64,000 nucleotides of DNA from Chiloscyllium plagiosum (taxonomy: Eukaryota): contig NC_057755.1 in the NCBI RefSeq assembly GCF_004010195.1, positions 10,785,497-10,849,496 of the forward strand. Direction: 5' to 3'. A model generated the notes under the pieces. It was not told the DNA's origin, searched no databases, and saw only the letters and a list, made by a program, of their open reading frames with translations. This document shows, piece by piece, positions 331 through 62,700 of this stretch (positions are counted from its first letter, which is position 1; every line of letters starts with the position of its first letter). The position numbers and the translations under genes are program-made.

Positions 331-535
331 GGAATGCAGATGCTGGAGAACAGAGACAAAAAGTGTGGTACTGGAAAAGCGCAGCCTGTCAGGCAGCATC
401 CGAGGAGCAGGAGAGTCAAAGGTTTCGAGCACAAGCTCTTCATTGGGAATGTGAAGAGGTTATGCTCGAAAGATTGACTTTCCTGTTCCTCGGATGCTGC
501 GTGACCCGCTGTGCTTTTCCAGCACCACACTTTTT
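331..535. mobile_element. Palindromic Penelope-derived non-autonomous element with degenerate hammerhead remnants
   Basis: Arms ~361-450 and ~451-533 are reverse complements; mirrored ORFs 306-530(-) and 363-701(+). Confidence 0.7.
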
Positions 536-595
536 GAATCTATCGTCACTTGGTCCATGTTTCCCTGCGGAATATTCTACAGCATGCAGAGGTTC

Positions 596-7100: not shown

Positions 7101-10100
7101 GTTCTTCAGTGCAGGTAATTCAAATACATTTACCTCTTTGATATAACGCTCTTGCGGGATCTTGAAATTTTCTTTGGATAATCCGATATTCAGACAATTG
7201 ATATTCGGATAATCGAGGTTCCTCATGTAATTTGAAATCTGTTTTCTGGCCAAGCAAATTTGCCATTCAGATCTAAAATAGTCAACGTAAGTGGGTTGTT
7301 GGATAGTATTTGATAATGTAGCTAATGGTTTTCACAGATTCTGGTTCTGCTATCACTGAGCGATTGAAAATGTGCGACAACTACCAGCTGTTCCAGTTGT
7401 TAAAATTCTACCGGGACAGACTAGAACGGGCGATTGAAGAAGGGACGGACAGACTCAGCCTCATGCTCAAAGAAGAGGGATATTTCACTGACCAAGAACA
7501 TTGTGTAAGTCTAAAATTAGCACAGCTGTGCCAGATCCATCAATGCACCAATGAATTTGGTAATCTCACTTTTCATAATTCCTTTTCCAAATCCACTCTA
7601 AATGTTATTTTAATAAGTTAAAAATCACACAACACCAGCTTATAGTCCAACAGGTTTAATTGGAAGCACTAGCTTTCGGAACCCTGCTCCTTCATCAGAT
7701 GATTGTCAACCACCTGATGAAGGAGCGTCGCTCCGAAAGCTAGTGCTTCCAATTAAACCTGTTGGACTATAACCTGGTGTTGTGTGATTTTTAACTTTGT
7801 ACACCCCAGTCCAACACTACCATTTATAGCGGCACGGTGGCACAGTGGTTAGCACTGCTGCCTCACAGCACCAGAGACCCGGGTTCAATTCCCGCCAGGT
7901 GACTGACTGTGTGGAGTTTGCACGTTCTCCCTGTATCTGCGTGGGTTTCCTCCGGGTGCTCCGGTTTCCTCCCACAGTCCAAAGATGTGCAGGTTAGGTG
8001 AATTGGTCATGCTAAATTGCCCGTAGTGTTAGGTAAGGGGTAAATGTAGGGGTATGGATGAGTTGCGCTTCGGCGGGTCGGTGTGGACTTGTTGGGCCAA
8101 ATGGCCTGTTTCCACACTGTAATCTAATCTAATCTAAAAAAAAATCGAAAATCTCCAAATCATATTATTTTACTGCCATTATTATGCTCAGTTCAAAGCC
8201 CTCCACTCAAGTTTTGACTTGCAGCAGTTTTATTTCTGAGGAAATTGCCGAGTGTGACGGCAGCAAAAATAAAGCACAAGAGACACATAGATTGTATTAT
8301 CAGTCAATAATCTCATTTAATGTCAGACACTGAAGGACAAAGGACAAATCTGAATTTGGTTTGTTCACATTTATTTGCTATTGCAAAAAAAGCTGTGAAC
8401 ACAGGATTCATTCTCAATTTTGAATGAGCTCCTGCTGAAAAATGCTGGGAAATTCCGTAACCGAGCCGTTCTTTCCCCTCTAAATTTGTTTATATTTTTC
8501 TCTCTGCTCCTAAATGTTTTCTTTATCATTCCACACAGAAAGTCACTGAGCTCATGGAGAAGGGAAACCGGGCAGACAGTTCCAAACTTCTCCTAAACCT
8601 GGTGATGGAGAAGGGCTCTCGGGCAAGAAGGATGATGTGGGAGTTCTTTGCAAAACAATGCGATGGGCATCCAAAGTTAGATAAAATATTGAAAGAAATA
8701 GAAGAACTGGGTACAGTGAAATCTCACAAGTAATTTAATTTCAGATTCAGATGCTGCTGACTGTGAACCAGTCTGACTTCATGAAATGTAATTGCTTTCA
8801 ACAGGATCTGATTCGTTCGACTGTATGTACATTGGGCAGGATTTATCTGAAATTCCCAATCAACTGAAAGGTAATGGATGAAATAGAGACTGCACATTGT
8901 TGGTTTCACTTGTGACAATTAGAATGTCTATTGACATTCCCATTTGCCTCGAAAAATTGTCCGATTTTGTGAATCACGTGTAGAGGCTGATGGAACAGGA
9001 ACAAAAGAGGATTGGTTTCAGATTCAAGCTTTTTAGTGCGCAATCAACTTCAAGTTAATGTGATTTCTGATGTTCTGTAACCATCTAGAGGGGGTGTTAT
9101 TTCAGCATGTTCAGTAGCTCATTGCTTTCACTAGTTAAGCATCATACAAGAACTAGGAGGATCCAGATACAATACAAAAGCCCGTACATACCTGACAGGA
9201 TGTGCTGAAGGAAAAGTAAATGAAGTGCATGATCTCCTTTGCTGAGTGGATGAGCACAGGTGAACCCAGCGACTTATTCCCCACTGTCTGTCAAATAATC
9301 TATTTGATAACTGGAATGAAACTGTGTGTCAAGTGGTTGCCTTCAGTCATTCCTCTCTAACAAGGGTTGTGTGACATTTGGTGGCTCAGTGGGATACTGA
9401 GTAGACGGTCTATAAGACCAGGAGGAGGCCATTCGCGCCCTCAAGTCTTCTCCATTTTTCAAAAGGATCATGGTTGATATGGTATCCCTCACGTCTACTT
9501 TCCTACCTTTGACTTCCCCACTGTTCATGGGCGGCGTGGTGGCTCAGTTGTTAGCACTGCTGCCTGACAGCACCAGGGTCCCAGGTTCACTTACAGCCTT
9601 GGTCGACTGCCTGTGTGGAGTTTGCACATTCTCCCGGTGTCTGCGTGGGTTTCCTCTGGGTGCTCCGGTTTCCTCCCACAGTCCAAAGATGTGCAGGTCA
9701 GGTGAATTGGCCATGCTAAATTGCCCGTAGTGTTAGGTAAGGGGTAAATGTAGGGGTATGGGTGGGTGGCGGGTCGGTGTGGACTTGTTGGGCCGAAGGG
9801 CCTGTTTCCACACTGTAATGTAATGTAATCTAATCTACTCCACCTCACTGGGTAGTGCCTTAGTTTCTATACATGTGCGAATCGATTTTTTTAAAATTTT
9901 AAACTGTTTCTTTTTCAAATGAAGTTTCCAATGACAGAAATTTTTAACTGCCGCACAAATCTCCATTTGCAGCTGGAATTTGAACCTTGGCTCAGGGGGT
10001 GGCTTGGTGGCTCAGTGGTTAGCACTGCTGCCTCACAGCACCATTGACCTGTTTCCAGCCTTGAGCGACTGTATGTGTGGAGTTTGCACAGTCTCCCAGT

Positions 10101-13100
10101 GTCCATGTGGGTTTTCTCCAGGTGGTCCACAATCCAAAGATGTGCAGGTTAGGTGAATTAGCCATGCTAAGTTGCCCATATGGTTCAGGGATGCATAAGT
10201 TAGATGCATTATTTAGCGGTATTTATAGAGTAATAGGATAAGGGAATGGATTTGGGTGGACTTGTTGGGCCAAAGGGCCTGTTTCCACACGGTATAGATT
10301 TTATGGTAATATAATTAAGAGATTTTTTTAATGACCACTTTTCTTTCATTGAGACTCACTTTCCTGTCCTTATTGAAGATGCTCAAATGAAGCACAGAGA
10401 AACGCTGCGGGAGCAGACTGAGTCGCTGCGAGTGAATTCCATCTTAAAGAAGGAGGTGGTTAAGATTTTCGAGCTGGTTGATCATTACGCTGAGCTATCG
10501 ATCATTTGTACTCCTCGGGACGCTCAGCTCGTGGAACATGAGCTGCTGGCAAGGAGCCGAGAACATGACGTGTGGAGAGAGAAGCATCTCCGCAGAGAAA
10601 TGACCAAAATTCAACCTGATCAACTGTTCCAGGCCTGTCCTTCGGAATCGGAAAACAAATCCGGGATCTCGTCAGCACTCAGTGGAGTCCATGGCATTGG
10701 AAAGACAACAATGGTCCAAAAAATTGTTTATGACTGGGCCACAGAGAAAATGTACCAGCAATTTCAATTTATTTTCAGTTTTAAATTCTGGGACTTGAAT
10801 TCTGTTAATTGTAAGATAAACTTGAGGAATCTTATTCTTGCTTTCTATCCTTATTTTGGGAATGTTCTGGCAGAGCTGTGGAAGAGTCCAGAAGAATTGC
10901 TGTTTATATTTGATGGTCTAGACGAGTTTAACGGGAGACTCAACTTTGACAATCCAAAACTTATTGAATCACAATCCACGTGCACAGATCCAGAGTTCCA
11001 GTGTGAGGTGTCGGACATCGTGTGTAGTTTAATTCAACACAGGCTGCTCCCGGGATGTTCAGTGCTGGTGACTAGCCGTCCCACAGCTTTGCATTTGTTG
11101 GAAAAGGCAGCGATCGGTGTCTGGGCTGAAATCCTGGGAATGGTTTGTGATGAGCGGAAGGAATACTTCAACAAGATTTTCAAAGATCAGGCGGTGGCAG
11201 CAGCTGTTTTCAAACACTTAGAGGAGAATGAGATCCTGTATCCCATGAGCTATAACCCTTCCTACTGCTGGATCCTAGGTCTGTCACTGGGTCCCTTCTT
11301 TACGCCAGGAGATGGGAAGCAGCAGGAAGCTCCCCAGACCATCACCCAGTTGTATTCTCACTATATTTGCAACTTGCTGAAAAGCCATAGCCAGGAGATC
11401 GAAGATCTCCGTGATGTGTTTCTGAAGCTCGGTGAGATGGCCTTCGCAGGAATCTCCGAGAAGAAAGTTGTCTTCACAAACGAGGATTTGATCAAGTACA
11501 ATCTACAACCTTCCCGGTTCCTGTCTGGGTTCCTGATGGATCTTTTGGGAAGAGACGATTCTGCACAGAGTGCGATGCATGCATTCCCACATCTCACCAT
11601 CCAGGAGTTTGTGGCTGCACTCGCACAGTTCCTGACGCCCGAACCAAAGGACATCGGGAAGCTCCTGAACGAAGCCCAAAGCAAGGAAGGTGGGCGATTC
11701 GAGATCTTTCTCCGTTTCGTTGCTGGTCTCTCCTCCCCGCAGTCGGCTCAGCCCCTGGAGGAGTTTCTGGGTCCGTTTCTGAAGCAGACAACCTCTCGAG
11801 TGACTGACTGGGTGATGGAGAAAGTGAATGGGCAGCTTGTAAACACAAAGAACAAAATTGGGAAAAGGAACCACATGAACACGTTGCACTATTTGGCAGA
11901 GTCTCAGAATAAAACACTGGCGCAGTCCACAGTCGGGTCTGTAGAGACATTTAAGTTTTGTGGGTTGCGACTGACCCCGGTTGACTGTGTGGTTCTGTTT
12001 CACGTTATTGGACTCTGCAATACAATAAAACACCTCAATCTAGAGAACTGCTTCATTCAGTACGAAGGACTACAGCGACTGGGCCCTGTACTACACAAAT
12101 GCCGGGAGTTGAGGTAACTGTTTTTTTCTTGATTTAGAGATGCCGGTGTTGGGCTGGGGTGTACAAGGTTAAAAATCACACAACACCAGGTTAGACTCCC
12201 AACACCTTTAATTGGAAGCACTAACTTTTGAAGCACTGCTCCTTCAGGTGGTTGTGGAGTACACAATTGTAAAACACAGGATTTATAGCAGAAGTTTACA
12301 ATGTGATGTAACTGAAATTATACAGTTGATTGTTTGTTAAGTCTCTCATCTGTTAGAATGACCATGTTAGGCAGCACGGTGGCTCAGTGGTTAGCACTGC
12401 TGCCTCACAGCACCAAGGGCCCAGATTCGATTCCCGCCTCGGGTGACTGTCTGTGTGGAGTTTGCACATTCTCCCTGTGTCTGCGTGGGTTTCCTCCGGG
12501 TGCTCCAGTTTCCTCCCACAGTCCAAAGATGTGCAGGTTAGTTGAATTGGCCATACTAAATTGCCCATAGTGTCAAGTGCATTAGTCAGAGGTAACCGTG
12601 GGGTATGGGAATGGGTCTGTGTCTGGGTGGATCCCTCTTTGGAGGGTTGGTGTGGACTTGTTGGGCTGAAGGGCCTGTTTCCATACTGTAGGGAATCTAA
12701 TCTAAAAGTTTCACTTCTTTCATATGTGAATCGCAGAGCGTTTTTTCAAAGTTACATTCTCAAATGAATGTGATTTTTAAAAGTTTTGTGATGTACATAT
12801 GAAAGAAGTGAAACTGACATGGTTATTCTAACAGTTGAGAGACTTAATAAACAATCAAGGCATTTTTTAATGTATAATTTCAGTTACATCACACTGTAAA
12901 CTTTTGCTATAAATTCTGTGTCTTAAAATTGTGTCCTTCACAACCACCTAATGAAGGAGCAGCACCCTGAGAGTTAGTGCTTCCAAGTAAACCTGTTGGG
13001 ACTATAACCTGGTGTTGTGTGATTTTTAACTTTGTATTTTTGTCTTATCAGTGATGATCATACATGTTCTCCATAATGAAGGGAAACAAACAAGATGTAG

Positions 13101-52897: not shown

Positions 52898-53814
52898 NNN
52901 NNNNNNNNNNNNNNNNNNNNNNNNNNNNNNNNNNNNNNNNNNNNNNNNNNNNNNNNNNNNNNNNNNNNNNNNNNNNNNNNNNNNNNNNNNNNNNNNNNNN
53001 NNNNNNNNNNNNNNNNNNNNNNNNNNNNNNNNNNNNNNNNNNNNNNNNNNNNNNNNNNNNNNNNNNNNNNNNNNNNNNNNNNNNNNNNNNNNNNNNNNNN
53101 NNNNNNNNNNNNNNNNNNNNNNNNNNNNNNNNNNNNNNNNNNNNNNNNNNNNNNNNNNNNNNNNNNNNNNNNNNNNNNNNNNNNNNNNNNNNNNNNNNNN
53201 NNNNNNNNNNNNNNNNNNNNNNNNNNNNNNNNNNNNNNNNNNNNNNNNNNNNNNNNNNNNNNNNNNNNNNNNNNNNNNNNNNNNNNNNNNNNNNNNNNNN
53301 NNNNNNNNNNNNNNNNNNNNNNNNNNNNNNNNNNNNNNNNNNNNNNNNNNNNNNNNNNNNNNNNNNNNNNNNNNNNNNNNNNNNNNNNNNNNNNNNNNNN
53401 NNNNNNNNNNNNNNNNNNNNNNNNNNNNNNNNNNNNNNNNNNNNNNNNNNNNNNNNNNNNNNNNNNNNNNNNNNNNNNNNNNNNNNNNNNNNNNNNNNNN
53501 NNNNNNNNNNNNNNNNNNNNNNNNNNNNNNNNNNNNNNNNNNNNNNNNNNNNNNNNNNNNNNNNNNNNNNNNNNNNNNNNNNNNNNNNNNNNNNNNNNNN
53601 NNNNNNNNNNNNNNNNNNNNNNNNNNNNNNNNNNNNNNNNNNNNNNNNNNNNNNNNNNNNNNNNNNNNNNNNNNNNNNNNNNNNNNNNNNNNNNNNNNNN
53701 NNNNNNNNNNNNNNNNNNNNNNNNNNNNNNNNNNNNNNNNNNNNNNNNNNNNNNNNNNNNNNNNNNNNNNNNNNNNNNNNNNNNNNNNNNNNNNNNNNNN
53801 NNNNNNNNNNNNNN
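52898..53814. other. Assembly gap (917 N)
   Basis: Run of n. Confidence 1.
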
Positions 53815-55380
53815 AATAATAACACATTCCCGGAGACCTGACCCTCTGACAGAGCTGCAATACCTCAGGACTCACCTTCTGATCATATAGTTCTCCCTCA
53901 GTTCTGACCGCATTACATTGAGGTACTGTCTTAGAACGAACCCTCTATCAAAATGGCACTCACGTCGGAGTGAACTTCTGACAATAAGGCACTGCCACAA
54001 TCTTGACCCTCTGATAATGAGGACCTCCCTCAGAACTGACCTTCTGACAATGACGATTTGGAGGTGCAGGTGTTGGACTGGGATGGACAAAGTTAAAAAT
54101 CACAGAACACCAGTTATAGTCCAACAGGTTTATTTGGAAACATTAGATTTCGAAGGGCTGCTTCTTTATCAGTTGATTGTGAACACCCCCTGATGAAGGG
54201 GCAGCACTTTGAAAGCGAGTGCTTCCACATAAACCTGTTGGATTATGACTTGGAGTAGTGTGATTTTTAACTTCTGACAATGAGGCAACACTTCTGTATT
54301 GACCCTCTGATTAAGCAGCAATACCCCAGTTCTGATCATCTAATTAAGAGGCACACCCTCAACTCTGACCTGCTGAAATGAGGCACTCCGTAAGGACTGA
54401 CCCTGCAACAATGAGGGTTTCCATCAGGACTGACTCTGACAACAGGGCCCTGCCTCAGGACTGAGCCTCTGGCTATCAGCTACGGCTTCAGCATTGACTC
54501 TCTGACAGTGCTGCAATACCTCAGTACTGAGCCTTTAAATATGCAGCATTCCTTCATTTCTGACCCCATTACAGTAAGGCACTGCCTCAGAACAGATTGT
54601 CTGACAATGACAATGATGCACTTAGGAATGAGCCTTTGACAATAAGGTACTCCCTCCGTATTGATGGTGAGGGCTCCCACAGTAATAGCTCTCTCACTGT
54701 GCAACACTATCAGTACTGAACCTCTCAACACAGTTATGATCGCCATGCAATGAGGCAGCGGCTCGGTATTGACCCTCTGACAAAAGGACACTGCCTCAGA
54801 ATGTCCCTGTGACAAAGAGGCATTCCCTCAGAACTTACCCATGATAGAATAGCTCAGTACGTAACCAGCAATGACGTCTCACGTCCTCAATTCAGAATCC
54901 TGGATTATAAGGCACTGCCTCAGGATGGATGTTCTGATAATAACACATTCCCACAATTCTGTCCTCACAGAATTGTTAGTGGGGTCACACCCTCCGTGTT
55001 CAAGCTCTCACAGTTCGTCAGTCCCTCAGTACTGACCCTCTGATAGACCTACGATTTCTCAGTACTGACCCTCTAATCGTGTGGCAGTCTCTCAATTCTG
55101 GTGCTAATGCAATGAGGCACTGCCTCAGTATTGACCCATTTAGTGCTACATTGCACCAATTCTCCCATTATCTGAGATACTGAAGCACTGTCAGATGGTC
55201 AAAACTGTGGTATGCATCACAGTGAGCTAGTCAATACTGAGGCAGTACTTTATTATAAGAGGTTTAGAACTGCGGGAGTGTCAAATGATTTTGGGGTGAG
55301 TACTAGGGTATTGCAGCACTAAATGGCAGAATTGGTGCAGTGTAGTGCTGAGTAGGAGAATTGCGGCAGGACAATACTGA
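53815..55380. repeat. Degenerate ~33-bp satellite (ctcagtactgaccctctgacaatgaggcactgc) switching orientation near 55170; contains a palindromic element at 54054-54272
   Basis: Repeated ctgaccctctgaca / gcactgcctcag motifs; reverse-complement motifs after ~55180. Confidence 0.85.
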
Positions 55381-57849: not shown

Positions 57850-58900
57850 GTGCAACTATACTGTATAGAACTAAATTAATGTTAGAGTTGATAATCATGG
57901 TGAGTTTAACATACTCATCTTTAACTATAAATTTCCAGAAGTTCTTTTGTATGGATTTCTGTTTCTATTTCTTGAATTGATAGCAAGGATGTGGGAATAG
58001 AATGAGAAAAGTTCGAGATAAGATGTGGTGGGATTAGCGTTTCAAATCATCTTTCAGATCCTGAGTTGCAAAGTGGTGTGTTGTTGAAGTTGAGAAAGTT
58101 TCAAATGGAAGTCTCATTGAGTAGTGGTCACCTCTTTTACTAATAAAAAAAGGAAATTACTGCAGGTGTTGGAAGCTGAAACCAAAAGAGAAAATACTGG
58201 AAAATCCTAGCAGGTCTGGTAACATCTGCAAGGAGAGAAAAGAACTGACGTTTCGGGTCTAACTGATCTTTTCTCAAAGCTGTGACAAAGAGTCAGTTAG
58301 ACTCGAAACGTCAGTTCTTTTCTCTCCTTAGAGATGCTGGCAGACCTGCTGAGATTTTCCAGCATTTTCACTTTTGGTTATTATTTATAAGCTTTGTTCA
58401 ATCTGTTAATCTGGAAATAATTACGTCAACTCCACTTACAAAATTAGATCTAGGTCCTTTCACCCTTGTGTTACTTTGTACTTTGGCTGAGAGAGCTCTC
58501 CTGGTTACTTGCAAAGAAGTTTACCTCTTCTAAGCTATAAGACCACAAGAACATAGGAACAGAAATTAGGCCATTTGGCCCATCGCTGATAGGTTTTTCC
58601 CCCTTTCCCCTGTGACCCTTGATCCCTTCGGCAATCAAGAGCTTATCTATCTCCATCTTAAATACATTCAACGACCCGGTCTCCACAGCCCTCGACAGCA
58701 ACGAATTCCACATATTCACCACTCTCTGACTTAAGACGTTTGCTCTTATATCCAATCTAATGGGTCTTCCCTTTACTCTAAGGCTGCACACGTTCCAGTA
58801 GCATCTAATTCAGCCACCCCTCCAACCAGCCAATGGAGATATTTACAAATATCAAGTTAATATACTAAAGCACTATCCATAATTTGGGACAAACATTTGG

Positions 58901-59796
58901 TTAATTATGATGTCGATTTATGTAAAAAGCACATTTCAGTGCTTCCTTGATCTGCTGTCTAAATTTGGATTGTGTCACCCCGTAAATAAACGCATTTGTG
59001 CAGCAACTTAAATTCACCAACATGACTCCGACATGTTCAAATAGGAGTAAAGAATGATCACCATCTGTGGGACCAGTTCCAGGAATAAAGTTATAAATGA
59101 AATTTATCACGTATATGGACCACAGAATTACAAAGCTGCCAGAAATCGTAAAGAGTAAAATTATAGACCTCCTCCGACTCTCCATCTCTGGGTCACTGCG
59201 ATTCACTCCCTTGCTCTGCCCCCTCAGTCCCTTCCGGATTCGACTGGCCACTATAATGTGCCTGACTGTCAGAGCGTTGAGCAGCAGAATGAGAACAAAT
59301 GGTAGTAATGGATTAAATACTGTGAGGAACCATTTAAATCCCATCCAGCTGGGCTCAGTATAGTAGCTCAGCTTTGAAACACAGAGCCATGGTAGATTGT
59401 AAAGTATTGCATAAGGTTTAAATCTAAAGTAGATAGGAACATGCATTAAACAGATCAGGGTGCAGGTTGTTGATAGAATTACAACTGCATTTCTCTTTGT
59501 GCAATATTTAAGTTTCAGTCTCTGGCAGCAAATAATGACAAATCGATCAAAGCTGAAAGTGACCGTAAACCAAATGGAGCAGGTTGTGGCTGCTGTTGAC
59601 AAGACATAGATTATACTGCACATGGGAGTCAAATCCAAGAAAGATAATGGGAAATAATAGGTATTGATGTGCCTCAGTACAACCTCAGTGATGAGAACCA
59701 TCAGATCCGATGCTGCCATAGCCATCAGATAGCAGGTGGTGCAGGAGGACAGGCCACACCTTCCCTGAGACAGGATCATGAGCACCACTAAATTAG
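58901..59796 (-). CDS. GPR139-like exon 2 (TM1 end to C-terminus)
   Basis: ORF 58901-59788 extended to the acceptor at 59797-59798. Confidence 0.95.
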
Positions 59797-62700
59797 CTGC
59801 AGGGGAGAGAAGAGAACATGTTTGAACCTAACATACTATCTGGATTCACTTTGCTACCAAAAAAAGGCTTTAAATTGTTTAAGCATCACATTTAGGGATT
59901 TTTATTCATCTCGGACATGCCTATTCCCAGGTCTAATGAGCCAAGAGTTTATGGGTTAAGCCGTAGTTCACTTCCTGCTTAATAGGTTGGAATGATATTC
60001 CCAACCTCAAATGTAACTAGTCACACACCACCATCTTATAGTCCAACAGATTTCTTTGAAATCACAACCTTTCAGAACACTGCCCCTTTGTCACTTCACC
60101 CAATGAAGGAATAGCCCTTGACCACTTTAACACTAAGATGGGGAGGAATTTCTTCTCTCAGAAGGGTGTGAGTCTTTGGAAATCCTTACTGAAGAGAGCT
60201 TGTGGGGGCAGAGTCCTTGTGTGTATTTAAGGCGGAGACAGATAGATTCTCAATCAGCCAGTGTTTGGGATAAGAGCAGGAAAGTGAGGAATGTCGGATC
60301 ATCGATGATCCTATTGAAAGACACAGTAGGCTCGAGGGGCCGAATGACCTACTCATGTTCCTATTTCTTTTGATCTTAAGACATGAATTTTCAATCAGAG
60401 ATTCCACCTCCCCTGATGCCTCACACTCATTTTACACTAGCAATTGGCACTAGATTAATTTAGAATATTGGTTAGCAGGGACAAGATGGACTGAAGGGTC
60501 AGTTTCTGCGCTGTTCATCTCTATGACTCTATGACCTCGAGCTATTTATTTGTAAATCCTTTACAATGAAGGAAAATACTCAGAGAGCCAGGAATGTGAT
60601 TTTACCAAAAATAGTATGTACTTATAAATAAACGGAAACTCACAACTTGTCAGGGAGCATGAGTTGGGAAAGAAGCTGAGTGAAGCTGTCAGGTTGATAA
60701 CATTTGTGTTTGACTTGGTTCACATCATATTCTACTGAAAGATTAATGAGGTGGATAAGCGAAAAAACGGGTTAGTGGAAATGAAAGTGCCTTAATGAAG
60801 AACAGAGAGTTCTCTGGGTCACTGCCAGTTGGAGCAGGAAAGCCACAGGGACGCCAGGGCAATGGTGCAGCCCATTAGTCACATTACAAAGTGGCATCTT
60901 CAACTCCAGTGAGAAACCCCACCTCTTCATTCCCTGTCAAAGTCAGAGGGTAAAATGTGCCGATACTTTGCTGATCTTTGGTAAGGTGGTCAGTCCAACT
61001 GCATTGAAGGGCAAGAACAGATGGGGAGGGAGTCACAACAGCTCTCTCAGAGAGCGAGAGAGGGAGTGGGGGGCAAAGAGAGAGAGAGAGACGGGTCATT
61101 TCAGGTCACCTGAATTGATTGGATGAAGCTTTCATCAAAGTTGTGACCGAATCCAAATTGGGAGTGTGCAAGGAAACAGACCCTGAGCAGGCAGCTCCGA
61201 CAGTGAAGTGAACAGAGTACAGGTGGATCTCTGTTTAATCTGGATGTCCAATTTAGGTGAGGGGGGGAATGGGGCAGGAGAACATAATGTGGTGGGGCAA
61301 TGAAGCCGGTGAAAACACATCCAGTGTCGCAATACCTCTCCTGAATGCACCCCCCCCCCCCTCAAACAGCACCAAGTTATTTCAGGGTGCTTCTGGAGGA
61401 AGGATAACACACCAGAGCTGATAGGATGGGGAGGAAAGCGTTTGGTCTAAAGTCATAATGAGGATGTTAAATGAGAAGAGAGAGGACGGCAGGATCAAGG
61501 AGTTATACCAGTATCACTTTCCTGAATTTCACTAAAAGACAGGGCAGTAGGAGTATGGAAATAACGAGAATGTTTGAGAACATGAACTTGTGCAGGCGAG
61601 TTTCCTGATTGAAACTCATCTCAGCTTTAAAGAGTCATCCCTCCTCTCTGAGGCTGTACCCTCGGATCCTAGTCTCTGCTACTGGTGAAAACATCTTCTC
61701 CACTTCCACTCTATCCAGGCCTCTCAGTATTCTGTAAATTTCAATCAGATTCCCCACCCCCTCCTCCAATCCTTCTAAACTCCATTGGTGTCCTCATATC
61801 CCCAGAATGGGATACACTTCTCGCTCAGCCTTCTCTGCTCCAAACGAAACAACCTGAGATTATTCAGCCTCTCTCCATCTCTGAATCCATCCCGTGGGGA
61901 GTGGGGGGGGGGGGGCAACATTCTAATGAATCGCTTCTGCACCCAACCCCCACAACCCCCCCTAAAATCCCATGCTTCCTATAGTGTGGGGACCAGAACT
62001 GCACACTGTATTCCAAATGTGGCTTCACCAAGGTCCTGTACAGTTCCAACATCACCTCTCATATCTTATAATCTCAGGTAATGACAACTCTAAACAGATC
62101 GATTCGAAAATATAACAAAGAAATGAGGATGCTGAAGATCTGAAGCAAAAGCAGAAATTGGTAAAGAAACACAGGAGATCTGGCAGTCCTCGTGGATAGA
62201 GAAAGCAGAGTTCATGTTTCACAGATTGTACAGATTGACTTCTGTAGAAGGTACACGAGATGTTGACTCTGCTTTCTCTCCACATTTGCTGCCAGACCTA
62301 CAGAGTTTCTCCAGTAATTTATGTTTCTGATAACCAGGAGAGCTATCAGTGCTGTAAATACATTGACTCAGGCTGATGAGGTATCGGTGCACCGAGATGA
62401 GGCGTGATTGTACTAAACACAATCATGCAAACTACAATCAGAGTGGATAAAATGGGGAGCTTGCCAAAAGCACAGCAGGTCAAGCAGCATCAGAGGAGCA
62501 CGAGAGTTGAAATGTGGTCCTGACTGAAACATTGACCCTCCAGTTCCTCTGATGCTTCCTCACCTCTTGTGTTATATCCACTTTACTGAAAATGACTTTC
62601 TAGCATCTGGAGTGCTCACTATCTCCAAACGACAATCCGACACCCTCTTGCACATGATACAATAAATCAAACACCGGAGTTAACTCAGGTCAATTGACGT

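What the first reader, a model, noticed from the sequence alone, without database searches (positions are those of the whole stretch)
7615..7821. Back-to-back hammerhead ribozyme motifs in a palindromic element inside the NLR CARD intron
Seen: a ~180-bp palindrome. The + strand has CAC-CUGAUGA-A-GGAGC/GCUCC-GAAA-GC-UA-GUG (7711-7745) and the - strand a mirror motif CAU-CUGAUGA-A-GGAG/UUCC-GAAA-GC-UA-GUG (~7666-7701). Established: Penelope-like retroelement terminal repeats carry minimal type-I hammerheads with a short palindromic stem III that cleave best as dimers. Inference: this is a non-autonomous Penelope derivative that would give a hammerhead-bearing RNA whichever strand is transcribed. 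In the NLR pre-mRNA the ribozyme fold would compete with a ~90-bp hairpin, which could protect the host transcript from cleavage.
Basis: partly seen in the sequence, partly recalled or inferred. Interest (0 to 1): 0.75.

Follow-up and report, generated by a model that had tools for sequence, protein, structure and literature searches.

The report
Shark Penelope palindrome, LTR-like ribozyme leader
This mirror-image sequence in an intron of a shark immune-receptor gene is one of many short insertions of a Penelope-type jumping gene, a known layout whose ribozyme is predicted to be locked shut here, but the copies' ends and a poly(A) site seen in RNA suggest the element likely copies the front end of its RNA from both sides of the DNA cut, much as retroviruses begin their copying.

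Summary
The palindrome (91-nt arms, 92% complementary) and both minimal type-I hammerhead cores are real, in a confirmed intron of a shark NLR gene. It is not a host device: it is one insertion of a very abundant Penelope-like element (34,326 exact 28-mer hits; long copies carry RT and a GIY-YIG-like endonuclease). The insertion runs 7615-8163, has a 13-bp TSD and was later split by a SINE. Each strand holds only one sense hammerhead, and the hairpin outcompetes it by ~45 kcal/mol (predicted), so cleavage here is unlikely. The layout (inverted pLTR, tail, TSD) is published, and this scan has noted shark examples and the twin-priming idea before (155 notes). The family adds mechanism: 36 of 41 palindromes pair a tailed with a tailless arm; 77 of 146 arms stop at the hammerhead's 5' edge, ~30 nt below a TATA box; raw RNA reads show non-templated poly(A) 27-30 nt past the hammerhead cut site; the tail ends at the ORF's ATG. 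The pseudo-LTR therefore looks like U3-R-U5, and the palindromes are likely two strong-stop cDNAs primed from both cut strands. The transcription start is inferred, not shown.

The parts
7602..7614 (.). Left target-site duplication (13 bp, 11 of 13 identical to 8162-8174)
7615..7706 (-). Inverted arm with the tailless ('short') 3' end; its 5' end is at position -7 relative to hammerhead C3, the predicted transcription start
7667..7701 (-). Minimal type-I hammerhead on the - strand (core from 7698; predicted cut 7670/7669); private changes make U-G in stem I and G-U in stem II
7707..7823 (+). Sense arm: R-like part (-6 to about +57), U5-like part and first part of the tail
7711..7745 (+). Minimal type-I hammerhead on the + strand, matching the family majority at all core and stem positions; predicted cut 7742/7743
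7753..7758 (+). Polyadenylation signal (ATTAAA here, AATAAA in many copies); family RNA reads carry non-templated poly(A) after the positions equivalent to 7769-7772
7798..7823 (+). First part of the ~37-nt PLE 'tail' present on one arm only
7829..8144 (+). Later SINE insertion inside the tail (multi-copy in the window; HE1-type shark SINE by recall, not tested)
8151..8163 (+). Remainder of the tail, ending at the position that in a full-length copy is the ORF start codon
8162..8174 (.). Right target-site duplication
7337..7504 (+). Upstream NLR exon (first half of the CARD-like domain)
8539..8715 (+). Downstream NLR exon (second half of the CARD-like domain)

Best explanation
The palindrome is a single short insertion of an endonuclease-bearing Penelope-like retroelement, made of two head-to-head copies of the element's hammerhead-containing leader, likely formed when both strands of the cut target primed reverse transcription at the element's two internal start sites and each copy likely ran off the RNA's 5' end. 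Shown: two arms with the family's two fixed 3' ends (tail on one only), TSD, family membership, link to an RT/GIY-YIG-like ORF, tail ending at the ATG, a used poly(A) site just past the hammerhead. Inferred: transcription starts at A(-7), about 30 nt below a TATA box, so the pseudo-LTR is organised as U3 (promoter) - R (-7 to +57, holding the hammerhead) - U5 (the two RT starts at about +85 and +123); short arms are strong-stop cDNAs; arms longer than R need a jump to the 3' R copy (or a tandem or circular template). In the host pre-mRNA the insertion is predicted to fold as a 91-bp hairpin with the ribozyme locked out; it is most likely a neutral passenger.
For: Family size 34,326 exact 28-mers, control 0. 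In the 78 loci holding the first 100 such hits on contig C1: 146 arms, 41 head-to-head pairs, 36 of 41 tail+short (36 of 38 classifiable, p=2.7e-9), TSD in 29 of 41 vs 0 of 205 shuffled-flank controls, 41 of 41 distinct junctions. 77 of 146 arm 5' ends lie at -14..+5, mode -7 (12 arms); of arms reaching -2, 53% end by -11, against 0-15% per 10 nt upstream; only 4 end at the hammerhead cut (+28..+32). Genome-wide, 35,432 exact core 16-mers vs 17,721 TATA-region 16-mers; calibrated by 35/83 and 13/25 exact rates this is about 84,000 vs 34,000 arms. TATAAA in 20 of 23 long arms, 19 at -37/-39. Long copies run into RVT_1 (E 3.3e-9) whose relatives carry RVT_1+PF26215, many with GIY-YIG PF01541; in L119 the tail ends at an ATG aligned to residue 1 of P0121. 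Raw RNA reads: 1,718 of 4,164 laid reads end in poly(A) at +56..+59; no such A-run in the genome (0 pattern hits; 0 of 127 copies). The tailless arm reaches >=5 nt further 5' than the tailed arm in 16 of 39 pairs, the reverse in 13, which one cDNA folding back cannot give. In vitro, an anole PLE protein nicks and extends both strands and starts RT at two internal sites bounding the tail (PMC11167929, main text read).
Against: The transcription start was not observed: no pile of read ends and no template-switch adapter among the top loose ends. The 5' cluster could equally be an RT stall at the hammerhead. Only 4 of 27 unpaired arms ending at -16..+8 showed a TSD directly at that end, so many 'single' ends are parts of complex or decayed insertions. 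Arms of one palindrome share family alleles more than random arms do (28 of 33, 18 of 23, 9 of 10), which fits one RNA or one source but also fold-back; arm-arm identity (0.928) is no higher than random (0.927). The RNA reads come from one single-cell sample, about 2% of it read, and from many copies, possibly inside host transcripts; they show the poly(A) signal works, not that the element's own mRNA ends there. The sample is one 8.7-Mb stretch of one contig, anchored on an exact 28-mer (favours young copies, cannot see 5' ends beyond +48). Pfam gave no GIY-YIG hit for two shark endonuclease fragments.
Confidence: 0.62

Rival explanations
1. Same twin-primed insertion, but the arms stop at the hammerhead's 5' edge because RT stalls on the folded or protein-bound ribozyme within a longer (tandem, read-through) RNA, not because the RNA starts there.
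For: 5' ends spread over about 20 nt (-14..+5) and many lie inside stem I/core; D. virilis Penelope has a TATA-less internal promoter (PMC2377424, passages and discussion read); no start site seen in reads.
Against: RT moving 3'->5' would meet the stable stem II (+9..+21) first, yet stop rates there are only 6-9% per 10 nt vs 53% at -11..-2; mode -7 coincides with an initiator-like A 30-32 nt below TATAAA (spacing rule is established knowledge).
Confidence: 0.2
2. Fold-back/self-priming: one cDNA (or an antisense template) snaps back and copies itself to make the second arm, as proposed for rotifer Penelope palindromes.
For: Proposed in PMC3846280 (passages read); arms share alleles more often than chance.
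Against: In 16 of 39 pairs the tailless arm extends further 5' than the tailed arm while only the tailed arm has the tail, so neither arm is a subset of the other; arms differ in a 2-nt family indel in 5 of 23 pairs and in the poly(A)-signal allele in 5 of 33.
Confidence: 0.1
3. One reading: a non-autonomous palindromic derivative whose hairpin is kept because it shields or regulates the NLR transcript against ribozyme cleavage.
For: The + arm hammerhead is intact and sense to the gene; the hairpin is predicted to dominate; the gene is transcribed and spliced across it.
Against: Junctions differ in all 41 palindromes; the layout is genome-wide; one arm has four private changes and a SINE landed in the tail, as expected for neutral decay; minimal PLE hammerheads showed no monomer cleavage (PMC4209133) and needed the PLE protein (PMC11167929).
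Confidence: 0.05

Closest known systems
EN+ Penelope-like element insertions with inverted pLTR, optional 30-40 bp tail and TSD (Pen2a_Av of Adineta vaga, PMC3846280; general scheme in 10.1101/2021.04.23.441226 / PMC8557442 Fig. 2)
   Same: Head-to-head inverted terminal copy, tail on one end only, TSD of about 9-14 bp, putative TATA/Inr in the pLTR, RT + GIY-YIG-type ORF in long copies.
   Different: Here most insertions have no ORF sequence and both arms stop at the hammerhead's 5' edge; a used poly(A) site inside the pLTR and the U3-R-U5 reading were not found in the passages read or in 10 literature searches.
[quoted passage not shown]
   Same: CUGANGA / GAAA core, extra base before stem II, G-C first pair of stem II, palindromic bases instead of stem III; that paper also notes dual min-HHRs 100-700 bp apart on opposite strands.
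   Different: Shorter stem I (3 bp) and stem II (5 bp); shark family not named in the parts read; the two motifs here are only ~15 nt apart.
Poseidon element of Anolis (PAc), in vitro TPRT (Frangieh et al. 2024, PMC11167929)
   Same: Two internal RT start sites bounding the tail; both strands nicked and extended; protein-assisted hammerhead; no RNA reads ending at the cut site.
   Different: In PAc the ORF starts inside the hammerhead and the RT starts lie in the ORF; here the ORF starts at the tail end, so both RT starts lie in the 5' leader.
Retroviral/LTR-retrotransposon U3-R-U5 LTR with minus-strand strong-stop DNA and first strand transfer (recalled, textbook)
   Same: Promoter upstream of a terminally repeated R, poly(A) signal in R, RT starting downstream of R and running off the 5' end (inferred).
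   Different: Priming would be by nicked target DNA, not tRNA; no integrase or RNase H; strong-stop products are integrated directly.
Animal non-LTR retrozymes (10.64898/2026.07.22.740005; abstract, introduction, methods and passages read)
   Same: Short, non-coding, type-I hammerhead-bearing, PLE-derived.
   Different: Retrozymes are head-to-tail tandem arrays; this is head-to-head with per-insertion junctions.

Membership tests
EN+ Penelope-like element | Single ORF with telomerase-like/PLE RT | tested here: met
   Long family copies: RVT_1 E 3.3e-9; tblastn covers residues 1-880 of P0121 in L119. Absent from this insertion itself.
EN+ Penelope-like element | C-terminal GIY-YIG endonuclease | tested here: inconclusive
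   Shark fragments align at 52-61% to the C-terminus of P0121 and many relatives carry PF01541, but Pfam did not hit the two shark fragments or P0121 itself; the VYLI...WYIGET motif is read as GIY-YIG from recall.
EN+ Penelope-like element | pLTR in direct or inverted orientation, with a 30-40 bp tail on one end | tested here: met
   3' ends cluster at +80..+95 and +118..+124; 36 of 41 palindromes have one of each.
EN+ Penelope-like element | Hammerhead motif in the pLTR | tested here: met
   Full core is the majority base at every position in 68 arms; 39 of 68 keep the whole core.
Neptune clade of PLEs | Extra Zn-finger in the RT-EN linker; RT phylogeny | tested here: inconclusive
   A Cys-rich C-x4-C-x2-C stretch precedes the endonuclease in L118; no tree with named clades was built.
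Minimal type-I hammerhead (min-HHR) | Conserved core, stems I and II, palindromic 15/16 positions, NUH cut triplet | tested here: met
   (AGCU palindrome, CUA triplet).
Minimal type-I hammerhead (min-HHR) | Compensatory covariation in stems | tested here: inconclusive
   Stem II nearly invariant, loop variable; two-sided changes only 3 of 340 cells, each a single copy.
Minimal type-I hammerhead (min-HHR) | Self-cleavage (as dimer or protein-assisted) | not testable with these tools
   No read-end pile at the cut site in one poly(A) library, but short cleaved fragments would be lost.
Non-LTR retrozyme | Head-to-tail tandem repeats each with a hammerhead | tested here: not met
   Arms are head-to-head on opposite strands.
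MITE-like self-propagating palindromic element | Copies share one fixed internal junction and symmetric termini | tested here: not met
   41 of 41 distinct junctions; asymmetric ends.

The most novel reading that the evidence does not exclude
The Penelope 'pseudo'-LTR is a functional LTR: transcription starts just 5' of the hammerhead and ends at a poly(A) site just 3' of it, so the ribozyme lies in a terminally repeated R region. A dimeric RT-endonuclease primes from both nicked DNA strands in U5, makes strong-stop cDNAs, and either joins them (the palindromes) or jumps to the 3' R copy, which regenerates the pLTR. The two R copies of one mRNA would supply the hammerhead dimer, pairing through AGCU and bringing the RNA ends together for the jump or for circularisation.
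Probability: 0.35. Interest if true: 0.75.

Novelty: new member of a known kind. Interest (0 to 1): 0.45.

Why it matters
The locus itself is ordinary transposon debris. [quoted passage not shown] Tens of thousands of shark copies with fixed ends, a TATA box, a used poly(A) site and an ORF start at the tail give exact coordinates for testing a strong-stop/strand-transfer model and a role for the hammerhead dimer. As a side effect, such insertions scatter ~90-bp RNA hairpins and working poly(A) signals through shark introns.

Tried and rejected
Rfam at E<=10 found no hammerhead model: expected for a motif without stem III, not evidence against. A first Pfam call failed on stop codons and was redone on open frames. 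A genome-wide count of palindromes by spacer length was not possible with the pattern tool, so palindrome frequencies rest on the 78-locus sample. ARAGORN found no tRNA in the SINE. No RNA holder was listed as RNA among indexed runs (no evidence either way); run X20 laid 0 reads (no test). The second read-lay did not reveal a transcription start. Cleavage as the cause of truncation was rejected: 4 of 146 arms start at +28..+32. An unconstrained two-strand fold of the leader gave a stem-II-swapped duplex rather than the catalytic dimer, uninformative. PMC5785218 (dimer cleavage of small PLE hammerheads) is not held; seen only as a reference title. Supplements of PMC4209133 and PMC11167929 and of the bioRxiv preprints were not read and may contain shark examples or promoter/poly(A) annotations. 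The first earlier-findings look-up by sequence returned two unrelated bacterial notes; a words look-up for poly(A)/strong-stop returned none.

Full report
Observation. The inverted repeat is real: arms 7615-7705 and 7707-7797, 91 nt, 92% complementary, folding at -136.4 kcal/mol with z = -23.1. Each strand carries one minimal type-I hammerhead: on +, stem I CAC/GUG, core 7714-7720, a 5-bp stem II, GAAA, the palindrome AGCU and A17 at 7742; on -, the mirror motif with core from 7698 and two wobble pairs. Rfam lists no hammerhead family among its 10 matches, as expected for a motif lacking stem III.

Host. The window encodes an NLR (NACHT E 1.8e-32, HD2, WH) 96% identical to a Chiloscyllium punctatum protein, so the genome is likely a bamboo shark's. 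Exons at 7334/7337-7504 and 8539-8715 flank the element, with GT/AG ends, and a contig from an RNA-type run joins them directly. The N-terminal domain has no Pfam CARD hit in three relatives but its top Atlas neighbours are CARD clusters (0.90), so 'CARD-like' is fair.

Extent. Family copies continue for a further ~15 nt of tail; here a multi-copy SINE (~7829-8144) interrupts the tail, whose remainder lies at 8151-8163, followed by an 11-of-13 match to 7602-7614, the TSD.

Family. A 28-mer of the arm has 34,326 exact matches in the genome, control 0; four more copies lie in the window. Long copies run upstream into a reading frame with RVT_1 (E 3.3e-9), whose relatives are ~800-1000-aa RVT_1+PF26215 proteins, many with GIY-YIG; Pfam did not call GIY-YIG on the shark fragments themselves. 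In L119 the tail ends on an ATG that aligns with residue 1 of P0121, so the arm is the element's 5' leader as well as its 3' terminal repeat. This is an EN+ Penelope-like element; the clade (Neptune-like by a Cys-rich linker) was not tested by a tree.

Anatomy across copies. I fetched all 78 loci holding the first 100 exact hits on contig C1 and numbered positions from hammerhead C3 = +1. They hold 146 arms; 82 form 41 head-to-head pairs. 3' ends fall in two groups, about +80..+95 and +118..+124; 36 of 41 pairs have one of each, 1 tail/tail, 1 short/short, 3 unclassified (p = 2.7e-9; 39 of 41 with a wider window). TSDs score in 29 of 41 pairs vs 0 of 205 controls. All 41 junctions differ, so the palindrome is rebuilt at each insertion. 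5' ends pile up at the hammerhead's front edge: 77 of 146 at -14..+5, mode -7; 53% of arms reaching -2 stop by -11, against 0-15% per 10 nt further up and 4-9% per 10 nt across +9..+48; only 4 start at the cut site. Genome-wide exact counts agree in direction: 35,432 core vs 17,721 TATA-region 16-mers, about 84,000 vs 34,000 arms after calibration. Against this, only 4 of 27 unpaired arms ending at -16..+8 show an adjacent TSD, and the sample favours young copies. Of 23 arms extending past -50, 20 carry TATAAA, 19 at -37/-39; an initiator-like A at -7 lies 30-32 nt downstream. In the window the left arm ends exactly at -7 and the right at -6.

RNA. In raw single-cell poly(A) reads (run X19, about 2% read, one sample), 373 and 423 reads leave the window sequence for poly(A) after 7769 and 7772; laid on a natural copy with its upstream region, 1,718 of 4,164 reads do so at +56..+59, 12-15 nt after the end of the ATTAAA/AATAAA signal. 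The A-run is not genomic (0 pattern hits; 0 of 127 copies). These reads come from many copies, not provably this one, and may lie in host transcripts. No pile of ends marks the hammerhead cut or a transcription start; depth rises only from 2,342 to 2,466 across the cut, though short cleaved pieces would be lost.

Mechanism. Published work shows a PLE protein nicking and extending both target strands and starting RT at two internal sites that bound the tail, with a predicted protein dimer and a protein-assisted hammerhead (PMC11167929; first two of four parts read). Putting this with the coordinates above, the terminal repeat reads as U3 (TATA) - R (-7 to +57, with the hammerhead) - U5 (RT starts at ~+85 and ~+123, then ATG). 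Because the mRNA would end at +57, the RT starts exist only near its 5' end; RT would copy 90-130 nt and run off, giving the mass of short arms. Two such cDNAs, one from each nicked strand, joined at their ends give the tail/short palindrome inside a TSD. Neither arm is a subset of the other in 16 of 39 pairs, against single-cDNA fold-back, which PMC3846280 proposed (passages read). Arms share family alleles more than chance (28/33, 18/23, 9/10) but not always: usually one source, sometimes two templates or slippage. The start site, the run-off and the jump are inferred; an RT stall at the ribozyme is the main rival.

Ribozyme in the host RNA. Forcing stems I and II costs 2.0 kcal/mol in the isolated + motif but 44.6 (+) and 52.6 (-) kcal/mol in the palindrome. 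Each strand has one sense copy, so no cis dimer is possible, and a minimal PLE hammerhead showed no monomer cleavage (PMC4209133; first two of four parts read). The hairpin does silence the motif in prediction, but nothing suggests this was selected.

Comparison and novelty. Inverted pLTR, one-sided tail, TSD and pLTR hammerheads are published (PMC3846280; 10.1101/2021.04.23.441226 passages; PMC4209133, which also mentions opposite-strand pairs). Earlier notes of this scan describe the same shark palindromes and a twin-priming reading (155 notes); I had noted that idea before seeing them, and they are not independent support. A used poly(A) site inside the pLTR and the strong-stop reading were not found in ten paper searches or in a words look-up of earlier notes; unread supplements and subscription papers may hold them. 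Verdict: a new member of a known kind, ordinary at this locus, with a testable mechanistic lead for a stated open problem (PMC2377424 discussion). Interest 0.45.

Noticed in passing
window 12132-13036: A second, larger head-to-head insertion of the same family in the next-but-one intron of the same NLR gene, just after the NACHT exon: tailed left arm, SINE at 12371-12707, junction palindrome 12707-12815, tailless right arm.
   Followed up: partly
window 54070-54273: Older palindrome of the same family (about 81-83% to the query) with the junction again at the hammerhead's 5' edge and decayed cores.
   Followed up: partly
window 357-536 and 58180-58379: Two further ~180-200 bp palindromes of other repeat families, each with GAAAC-type and stem-loop remnants near the centre; likely other Penelope families with the same head-to-head layout.
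   Followed up: no
window 7753-7772: The sense arm places a family poly(A) signal, used in other copies, in the sense strand of the NLR intron; intronic polyadenylation would truncate the receptor inside its CARD-like domain. No locus-specific read shows this.
   Followed up: partly
window 7710 and 7702 (position -3 of each arm): The two arms carry family alleles in crossed combination (C with loop GTC, T with loop AG-), whereas the common haplotypes are C/AGC and T/GTC; could reflect inversion of the palindrome centre or two templates. Single case.
   Followed up: partly
window 7790-7809: The short 3' end and start of the tail resemble a branch point plus 3' splice site; introns are known in some PLE leaders. 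Not tested.
   Followed up: no
window 58901-59827 (- strand): Single-exon rhodopsin-family GPCR ORF (7tm_1, E 1.1e-22).
   Followed up: no
window 52898-53814: 917-base run of N (assembly gap or withheld stretch), producing spurious long ORFs.
   Followed up: no
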